64,000 nt of DNA from Escherichia coli (GTDB lineage Bacteria; Pseudomonadota; Gammaproteobacteria; Enterobacterales; Enterobacteriaceae), in assembly GCF_016903815.1 (NCBI RefSeq), contig NZ_CP069973.1; one strand, given 5' to 3'. Shown here one piece after another: positions 44,956 to 45,018 of the stretch. A program made the translations under genes and the position numbers. The first letter of the stretch is position 1, and every line of letters begins with the position of its first letter. The notes under the pieces are model-generated. The model was given only the letters and a program-made list of their open reading frames with translations, searched no databases and was not told where the DNA came from.

Positions 44956-45018
44956 CTGTTCATATCTGTTCATATTCTGCCGTAAGCCGTTCATCCTGAC
45001 CAGTGCCGCTGTTCATAT
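44956..45018 (+). promoter_or_regulatory. tor box array (TorR binding sites) of the torCAD promoter
   Basis: Decamers CTGTTCATAT (x2 tandem), CCGTTCATCC, CTGTTCATAT in the torR-torC intergenic region. Confidence 0.85.

What the first reader, a model, noticed from the sequence alone, without database searches (positions are those of the whole stretch)
44956..45018. Array of four tor boxes in the torR-torC intergenic region
The decamer CTGTTCATAT appears twice in tandem, followed by the degenerate CCGTTCATCC and another CTGTTCATAT, all in direct orientation upstream of torC. This is the known phospho-TorR binding architecture and is read directly from the sequence. It confirms the tor regulon is intact despite the IS insertion downstream of torD.
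Basis: partly seen in the sequence, partly recalled or inferred. Interest (0 to 1): 0.2.

Follow-up and report, generated by a model that had tools for sequence, protein, structure and literature searches.

The report
Known TorR operator (four tor boxes)
This is the textbook set of four TorR-binding repeats between the E. coli torR and torCAD genes, base-for-base the same as in the laboratory strain K-12, so it is real but ordinary.

Summary
CTGTTCATAT occurs exactly at 44956, 44966 and 45009 (+ strand), and CCGTTCATCC lies at 44987-44996. All four are in direct orientation inside the 129-nt gap between divergent torR (44245-44937, -) and torC (45067-46239, +). Three exact copies compare with 0.04 expected by chance.

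From box 1 through box 4 the sequence is identical to E. coli K-12 MG1655, where these "tor boxes" were defined experimentally. The same 71 nt are identical in 5036 of 5415 complete E. coli genomes. Box positions and spacing are conserved between torR and torC in Salmonella, Edwardsiella, Providencia and Grimontia.

- Boxes 1-2 bind TorR with or without phosphorylation and also repress torR. Only occupancy of boxes 3-4 is the phosphorylation-dependent activating step.
- The boxes alone do not show that the system is intact. I checked that separately. torS, torT, torR, torC, torA and torD are all full length. The insertion sequence is a 1432-bp IS1397 in a REP hairpin loop 31 nt after the torD stop codon, and it interrupts no gene.

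Already known; low interest.

Side observation, outside the window: natural E. coli genomes carry 1, 2 or 3 tandem copies of the distal decamer.

The parts
44956..44965 (+). tor box 1 (CTGTTCATAT), distal half of the TorR high-affinity site
   Evidence: identical to K-12; published sequence in PMC9239176
44966..44975 (+). tor box 2 (CTGTTCATAT), tandem with box 1
   Evidence: the box1-box2 20-mer lies between torR and torC in five genera
44987..44996 (+). tor box 3 (CCGTTCATCC), degenerate low-affinity box, 7 of 10 match
   Evidence: PMC9239176 (no TorR shift with box 3 alone); GTTCAT core conserved at the same spacing across genera
45009..45018 (+). tor box 4 (CTGTTCATAT), promoter-proximal box, ends 8 nt before the torC -10 hexamer
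45027..45032 (+). torC promoter -10 hexamer TAAGAT; no recognisable -35, as expected for an activator-dependent promoter
   Evidence: PMC10845959 gives the -10 region as TTGCT(nnnn)AAGAT. TAAGAT is invariant in Escherichia, Salmonella, Edwardsiella and Providencia. The absent -35 is my reading.
44974..45002 (-). candidate torR promoter (inferred): -35 TGGTCA (45002-44997), 17-nt spacer, -10 CAGAAT (44979-44974); the start site would fall near 44967, inside box 2
   Evidence: My reading; 8 of 12 consensus matches, below the threshold of the scan. TGACCA is conserved in the Enterobacterales loci. Consistent with my recollection of Ansaldi et al. 2000 that boxes 1-2 cover the torR start site; that paper is not held.
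44245..44937 (-). torR, OmpR/PhoB-family response regulator, 230 aa, intact
   Evidence: NF008034 equivalog, 428.7 bits against cut-off 275. One difference from K-12 (S46P), and P46 is shared with E. albertii and Edwardsiella.
45067..46239 (+). torC, pentahaem c-type cytochrome, 390 aa, intact
46239..48785 (+). torA, TMAO reductase, 848 aa, intact
48782..49381 (+). torD, TorA-specific chaperone, 199 aa, intact
43244..44272 (+). torT, periplasmic TMAO-binding protein, 342 aa, intact
40417..43161 (-). torS, hybrid sensor kinase, 914 aa (GTG start), intact; the 82-nt torS-torT gap is unoccupied (no HK022-type prophage)
   Evidence: attB context from PMC6814406
49413..50844 (+). IS1397 (IS3 family), 1432 bp. 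Terminal repeats TGAACTG[C/A]ACCCCAAA, flanked by a TTTA duplication (49409-49412 and 50845-50848). Inserted in the loop of a REP hairpin 31 nt after the torD stop codon.
   Evidence: (RefSeq annotation of an identical sequence); the same junction occurs in 111 of 5426 genomes

Best explanation
The 63-nt array is the TorR operator of E. coli: four direct decamer repeats shared by the divergent torR and torCAD promoters. TorR is an OmpR/PhoB-type response regulator encoded next door. It occupies the perfect tandem pair, boxes 1-2, with high affinity whether or not it is phosphorylated. That pair sits over the torR promoter and start region, so occupancy represses torR (negative autoregulation). 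When TMAO is present, TorT-TorS phosphorylates TorR. Phospho-TorR then also fills the weaker boxes 3 and 4, which lie about two helical turns apart on the same face of the DNA as boxes 1-2. Box 4 ends 8 nt upstream of the TAAGAT -10 hexamer, in place of a -35 element. From there TorR recruits RNA polymerase and switches on torCAD.

Shown here: presence of the boxes, their exact identity to the K-12 operator, their position, spacing and cross-genus conservation, and intact tor genes.

Taken from the literature on K-12 and Salmonella: TorR binding, the affinity hierarchy, the phosphorylation dependence and the autoregulation.

Inferred: that the same holds in this strain, and the exact torR promoter hexamers.
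For: Three exact decamers against 0.04 expected. The four-core cluster was not reached in 300 shuffles. The region from box 1 to box 4 is identical to K-12 MG1655. The 71-nt region is identical in 5036 of 5415 E. coli genomes. The array is flanked by genes reaching equivalog cut-offs for TorR and TorC, with TorA, TorD, TorT and TorS alongside. Published box sequences and gel shifts match: Kd about 1-3 uM for boxes 1, 2 and 4, and none for box 3 alone (PMC9239176). Genomic SELEX gives a single TorR peak in the torR/torC spacer, with and without acetyl phosphate (PMC5934670). TorR-P binds the torCAD promoter while ArcA-P and FNR do not (PMC10845959). Both phosphorylated and unphosphorylated TorR bind the boxes in vivo (PMC5294996). 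TorRS is cited as the negatively autoregulated exception among two-component systems (PMC2820520). In Salmonella arizonae and diarizonae, four Edwardsiella, three Providencia and two Grimontia species, the box1-box2 20-mer lies between divergent torR and torC homologues (in two loci the stored DNA ends and only torC was found). Boxes 3 and 4 and the -10 hexamer sit at the same offsets. The one spacing variant, P. vermicola, adds 10 nt, one helical turn.
Against: Nothing contradicts it. No binding or expression data exist for this strain. There are four SNPs relative to K-12 in the intergenic region (44944, 45021, 45053, 45062). All lie outside the boxes, but one is between box 4 and the -10 hexamer and two are in the 5' UTR. 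The primary papers for start-site mapping and helical phasing (Simon 1995, Ansaldi 2000) are not in the held library, so those details rest on my recollection. The cross-genus set was found by searching for the exact box1-box2 20-mer, so conservation of boxes 1-2 in that set is by construction. Only boxes 3 and 4 and the -10 hexamer are independent evidence.
Confidence: 0.97

Rival explanations
1. The operator is present but the tor system in this strain is silent or altered. Possible causes are the IS1397 insertion 31 nt after torD (loss of the REP hairpin or terminator, or read-through into or out of the IS) or the lineage-specific promoter and UTR SNPs. On this reading the boxes say nothing about function.
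For: The IS splits the REP hairpin immediately downstream of torD. The 44944 A allele is found in only about 100 of 5416 genomes. PMC10845959 reports that the torC 5' UTR (+1 to beyond +48) is needed for induction, and two SNPs lie there.
Against: All six tor ORFs are full length with no frameshift or stop. The IS is outside every coding sequence and downstream of the last gene of the operon. The 45021 A allele is shared with 1009 genomes including O157:H7, and with E. albertii, E. whittamii and Providencia. The T at 45053 and C at 45062 are also seen in the other E. coli, E. albertii and E. whittamii loci read here. The same IS junction persists in 111 genomes.
Confidence: 0.08
2. The repeats are a binding site for a different OmpR-family or anaerobic regulator (ArcA, FNR, NarL) rather than TorR.
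For: PMC10845959 notes that ArcA-like and weak FNR-like motifs can be drawn over the same region. TACTCAT, which fits the NarL heptamer consensus TACYYMT (consensus from my own knowledge), flanks the array at 44948 and 45020. NarL is reported to repress tor (Iuchi and Lin 1987, cited).
Against: ArcA-P and FNR did not bind the torCAD promoter in vitro, whereas TorR-P did. TACYYMT occurs 41 times in the window against about 28 expected, so it is weak evidence. The heptamers lie outside the boxes and would add a regulator, not replace TorR.
Confidence: 0.02
3. The decamers are a functionless short tandem or dispersed repeat made by replication slippage.
For: The copy number of the tandem decamer does vary among E. 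coli isolates, with 1, 2 or 3 copies. That is the signature of slippage.
Against: Boxes 3 and 4 are not tandem, yet they keep their core and their spacing across genera in which TorR identity falls to 53%. Published gel shifts and SELEX show TorR binding.
Confidence: 0.01

Closest known systems
E. coli K-12 torR-torC regulatory region (tor boxes 1-4; Simon et al. 1995, Ansaldi et al. 2000)
   Same: The sequence from box 1 through box 4 is identical, and so are the intergenic length (129 nt), the divergent gene arrangement and the -10 hexamer.
   Different: There are four SNPs outside the boxes: 44944 A for G, 45021 A for G, 45053 T for C, 45062 C for T. TorR carries P46 instead of S46. IS1397 lies downstream of torD, which K-12 lacks.
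Salmonella enterica torR-torC tor boxes (PMC9239176)
   Same: Same four-box layout. Boxes 1, 2 and 4 have the same sequence and the spacing is the same.
   Different: The spacers and the sequence between box 4 and the -10 hexamer differ. Box 3 is CCGTTCATTC in subsp. arizonae.
PhoB pho boxes and OmpR sites (OmpR/PhoB-family direct-repeat operators that replace the -35 element)
   Same: Both use direct repeats with about 10-11 bp periodicity, bound head-to-tail by a winged-helix response regulator. The promoter-proximal repeat lies next to a -10 hexamer with no -35. The parallel is drawn from established knowledge of the family; TorR also scores against the PhoB and OmpR models.
   Different: The repeat sequence is different. 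Here a high-affinity distal pair doubles as an autorepression site for the divergent regulator gene, and it is occupied without phosphorylation.

Membership tests
tor box array (TorR operator of the torR-torCAD divergon) | Four direct repeats of the decamer consensus CTGTTCATAT: three perfect copies plus the degenerate box 3, CCGTTCATCC | tested here: met
   published sequences in PMC9239176
tor box array (TorR operator of the torR-torCAD divergon) | [quoted passage not shown] | tested here: met
   torR 44245-44937 (-) and torC 45067-46239 (+)
tor box array (TorR operator of the torR-torCAD divergon) | Sequence identity with the experimentally characterised K-12 operator | tested here: met
   Identical from box 1 to box 4. 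The 71-mer is identical in 5036 of 5415 genomes.
tor box array (TorR operator of the torR-torCAD divergon) | Boxes phased on one face of the helix: start-to-start 10, 21 and 22 nt, with box 4 next to the -10 hexamer | tested here: met
   The offsets are the same in four other genera, and the only variant adds 10 nt. The functional requirement for phasing is recalled from Ansaldi 2000, which is not held.
tor box array (TorR operator of the torR-torCAD divergon) | Cognate OmpR-family regulator TorR, with sensor TorS and binding protein TorT, encoded at the locus and intact | tested here: met
   Equivalog hits above cut-off for all of them, full length, D53 region conserved
tor box array (TorR operator of the torR-torCAD divergon) | TorR binds the boxes and TMAO induces torCAD through them in this strain | not testable with these tools
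   Only literature on the identical K-12 sequence is available
tor box array (TorR operator of the torR-torCAD divergon) | Boxes 1-2 overlap the torR transcription start, giving autorepression | tested here: inconclusive
   A candidate promoter, TGGTCA-17-CAGAAT, would place the start near 44967 in box 2 (my reading; 8 of 12 matches, not reported). The mapping paper is not held. Negative autoregulation is cited in PMC2820520.
IS1397 (IS3 family) | IS3-family transposase in two frames, terminal inverted repeats beginning TG and ending CA, short target duplication | tested here: met
   NF033516, 300 bits against cut-off 160. Repeats TGAACTG[C/A]ACCCCAAA and a TTTA duplication. RefSeq annotation of the identical sequence reads 'IS3-like element IS1397 family transposase, programmed frameshift'.
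IS1397 (IS3 family) | Insertion into the loop of a REP/palindromic unit (the known target preference of IS1397, recalled from Bachellier/Clement/Hofnung work) | tested here: met
   K-12 has the uninterrupted hairpin GCCTGAAAAGACGCG-TTTA-GCGTCGCATCAGGC. In the window the IS sits at the TTTA loop.

The most novel reading that the evidence does not exclude
The tandem box1-box2 decamer is a slippage-prone, copy-number-variable operator in natural E. coli. It occurs in 1, 2 or 3 copies, giving 3-, 4- or 5-box alleles, and the window carries the common 2-copy state. These alleles might act as heritable settings of torR autorepression and torCAD inducibility. The 3-copy allele and the P. vermicola variant both add exactly 10 nt, which keeps the helical phase. 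The 1-copy allele removes half of the high-affinity site. I found no description of this polymorphism in the held literature, but that search was narrow.
Probability: 0.3. Interest if true: 0.4.

Novelty: already known. Interest (0 to 1): 0.08.

Why it matters
For this window it matters only as an annotation anchor. It confirms that the locus is the canonical TMAO-respiration control region and that the strain carries an apparently complete torSTRCAD system with a standard operator. It adds nothing to what is known about TorR. The copy-number variants of the distal decamer seen in other genomes could be a small, testable case of natural operator tuning.

Tried and rejected
1. The primary papers (Ansaldi et al. 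2000, by DOI and by PMC94371) are not held. Start-site and phasing details therefore rest on my memory and on secondary citations.

2. The Vibrio fluvialis TorRS paper has no box-level detail.

3. A possible fifth, degenerate box after box 4 (TTACTCATTA, 45019-45028) was considered. It is in 10-nt register, and box 4 plus this segment is 83% identical to box1+box2 over 18 nt. I rejected it because its TCAT core is not kept in Salmonella, Edwardsiella or Providencia and it would overlap the -10 hexamer.

4. The 2-mismatch match CGGTTCATCT at 44902-44911, inside torR, was considered. Matches at 2 mismatches are near chance level (57 observed, 46 expected), so I do not count it as a box.

5. The only promoter-like site from the scan is on the - strand: TGAACA-17-TAAAAT, 44972-44944. 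It depends on the lineage-specific A at 44944 (K-12 reads TAAAAC) and would start transcription at the torR ATG. I do not take it as the torR promoter.

6. Five of the 20 genome hits to the 20-mer are MAGs (Bacteroidales, two Lachnospiraceae, Synergistaceae, Clostridia) with no torR or torC nearby. I treat them as unrelated occurrences.

7. A literature search for the box copy-number polymorphism found nothing relevant.

Full report
**Observation.** Reading 44700-45300 shows the sequence ...CATT CTGTTCATAT CTGTTCATAT tctgccgtaag CCGTTCATCC tgaccagtgccg CTGTTCATAT ttactcattaagatcg... The pattern search finds CTGTTCATAT exactly three times in the 64-kb window on either strand, at 44956, 44966 and 45009, all on the + strand. 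The dinucleotide-preserving expectation is 0.04, and no shuffle gave three. The degenerate box CCGTTCATCC lies at 44987-44996. Start-to-start spacing is 10, 21 and 22 nt. Four same-strand GTTCAT cores within 63 nt were never reached in 300 shuffles. At two mismatches the decamer is at background level (57 observed, 46 expected), so only the exact copies and the positionally conserved box 3 carry weight.

**Context.** The array lies in the 129-nt gap between a 230-aa ORF on the - strand (44245-44937) and a 390-aa ORF on the + strand (45067-46239). The six surrounding ORFs reach NCBIfam equivalog cut-offs for TorS, TorT, TorR, TorC, TorA and TorD. A megablast of 44700-45300 hits 5417 of 5426 complete E. 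coli genomes, always over torR/torC. The window is identical over 18.6 kb to E. coli strain 7/2, NZ_CP023820.1.

**Comparison with the characterised operator.** Aligned with K-12 MG1655, the intergenic region has the same length and is identical from box 1 through box 4. Four SNPs lie outside the boxes:
- 44944 A for G, between box 1 and the torR start codon.
- 45021 A for G, between box 4 and the -10 hexamer.
- 45053 T for C, in the torC 5' UTR.
- 45062 C for T, also in the torC 5' UTR.

The published box sequences are the same: boxes 1, 2 and 4 CTGTTCATAT, box 3 CCGTTCATCC (PMC9239176). That paper also reports TorR gel shifts on boxes 1, 2 and 4 (Kd about 1-3 uM) and none on box 3 alone. Genomic SELEX found a single TorR peak in the whole K-12 genome, in the torR/torC spacer, with and without acetyl phosphate (PMC5934670). 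TorR-P, but not ArcA-P or FNR, bound the torCAD promoter (PMC10845959). That paper also gives the -10 region as TTGCT(nnnn)AAGAT, which puts the -10 hexamer TAAGAT at 45027-45032, 8 nt after box 4. No -35-like hexamer sits 16-18 nt upstream (my reading), as expected for an activator-dependent promoter.

**Conservation.** Within E. coli, the 71 nt from 44950 to 45020 are identical in 5036 of 5415 genomes. A scan of one genome per species for the box1-box2 20-mer gave 20 loci. Fifteen are Escherichia, Salmonella (subsp. arizonae and diarizonae), Edwardsiella (4 species), Providencia (3) and Grimontia (2). In these loci the 20-mer lies upstream of a torC homologue. A divergent torR homologue is found on the other side in all but two loci, where the stored DNA ends. 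TorR identity falls to 53% in Grimontia. In register, box 3, box 4 and the -10 hexamer sit at the same offsets, with the GTTCAT/TTCAT cores preserved. Because the loci were found through boxes 1-2, only boxes 3 and 4 and the -10 hexamer are independent evidence. The one spacing variant, P. vermicola, carries 10 extra nt after box 2 that look like a further degenerate box (TTATTCACAT), which preserves the helical phase. The other five loci are MAGs without tor genes and are unrelated occurrences.

**Mechanism.** TorR is an OmpR/PhoB-type response regulator. The literature on the identical K-12 sequence says that phosphorylated and unphosphorylated TorR both bind the boxes in vivo (PMC5294996 citing Ansaldi 2000). 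It also says that TorRS is the exception among two-component systems in being negatively autoregulated (PMC2820520), and that phospho-TorR activates torCAD after TMAO is sensed by TorT-TorS (PMC10845959, PMC6814406).

From my recollection of Ansaldi et al. 2000, which is not held:
- Boxes 1-2 are the high-affinity site and cover the torR start site.
- Boxes 3-4 are low-affinity sites filled cooperatively by phospho-TorR.
- The two groups must lie on the same helical face.

By inspection, the - strand carries TGGTCA (45002-44997), a 17-nt spacer and CAGAAT (44979-44974). This would start torR transcription near 44967, inside box 2, and the TGACCA segment is conserved across the Enterobacterales loci. 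This promoter assignment is inference, not a tool result.

**The 'intact regulon' claim.** The boxes alone cannot show this, so I checked the genes.
- All six tor ORFs are colinear with K-12 and have no stops or frameshifts. They differ from K-12 by 1 to 22 amino acids.
- The single TorR difference, S46P, is the state found in E. albertii and Edwardsiella. The D53 region is unchanged.
- The torS-torT gap is 82 nt as in K-12, so the HK022 attachment site described in PMC6814406 is unoccupied.
- The IS is a 1432-bp IS3-family element, annotated IS1397 in the identical RefSeq record, at 49413-50844. It has terminal repeats TGAACTG[C/A]ACCCCAAA and a TTTA duplication, and it sits in the loop of a REP hairpin 31 nt after the torD stop.
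- It interrupts no gene. The same junction is present in 111 of 5426 genomes.

Whether splitting the REP affects torCAD mRNA 3' ends is unknown. Other reported TorR targets (tnaCAB, gadAXW, hdeAB) were not examined here, and none appears in the annotated stretch around tor.

**Verdict.** The identification is correct. The mechanistic label is slightly too narrow, and the 'intact' inference is right only after independent checks. This is the known TorR operator in an ordinary E. coli chromosome: already known, low interest.

**Side observations.** While measuring conservation I found that natural E. coli genomes differ in the number of tandem distal decamers:
- One copy (3 boxes): for example 2011C-4251, JNEC-KY204 and RMDEC465. 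The exact junction 42-mer occurs in 13 genomes.
- Three copies (5 boxes): for example O121 RM8352 and UTI89, in 74-79 genomes.

The window has the common two-copy form. I found no mention of this polymorphism in the held literature. Separately, the A at 44944 is rare, with the identical 61-mer in about 100 genomes. It turns TAAAAC into TAAAAT on the - strand, which produces the only promoter-like hit of the consensus scan.

Noticed in passing
Not in the window: L025 (E. coli O121 RM8352) 91-120; L026 (2011C-4251) 91-100; L023, L024: Copy-number polymorphism of the tandem decamer CTGTTCATAT in natural E. coli. One copy gives 3 boxes (exact junction in 13 genomes). Three copies give 5 boxes (74-79 genomes, including UTI89 and O121:H19 strains). 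The window and about 93% of genomes have two copies. The functional effect is untested.
   Followed up: partly
L009 (Providencia vermicola), about 46-55 (oriented as), right after box 2: There are 10 extra nucleotides between box 2 and box 3 that resemble a further degenerate box (TTATTCACAT). They shift boxes 1-2 by one helical turn relative to boxes 3-4.
   Followed up: no
window 49413-50844, with flanks 49394-49412 and 50845-50862: A 1432-bp IS1397 is inserted in the TTTA loop of a REP hairpin 31 nt after torD, with a TTTA duplication. The adjacent REP cluster before cbpM is also shorter than in K-12. The junction is shared by 111 of 5426 complete genomes.
   Followed up: yes
window 44944 (- strand hexamer 44949-44944): A lineage-specific G-to-A change (identical 61-mer in about 100 genomes) makes TAAAAT. 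Together with TGAACA in box 2 (17-nt spacer) it forms a 9-of-12 promoter-like site whose start would fall on the torR ATG, which would give a leaderless transcript. K-12 reads TAAAAC.
   Followed up: partly
window 44946-44955 and 45018-45027: A perfect 10-nt direct repeat, TTTACTCATT, brackets the box array. In K-12 the second copy is TTTGCTCATT. Each copy contains TACTCAT, which fits the NarL heptamer consensus TACYYMT. NarL is reported to repress tor, but the motif is common in the window (41 sites against about 28 expected).
   Followed up: partly
window 45053 and 45062: Two SNPs relative to K-12 lie in the torC 5' UTR, the segment that PMC10845959 proposes to be needed for molybdenum-cofactor-dependent induction.
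   Followed up: no
window 43162-43243: The torS-torT intergenic region (the HK022 attB and IscR site region) is 82 nt with one SNP relative to K-12. No prophage is integrated there.
   Followed up: yes
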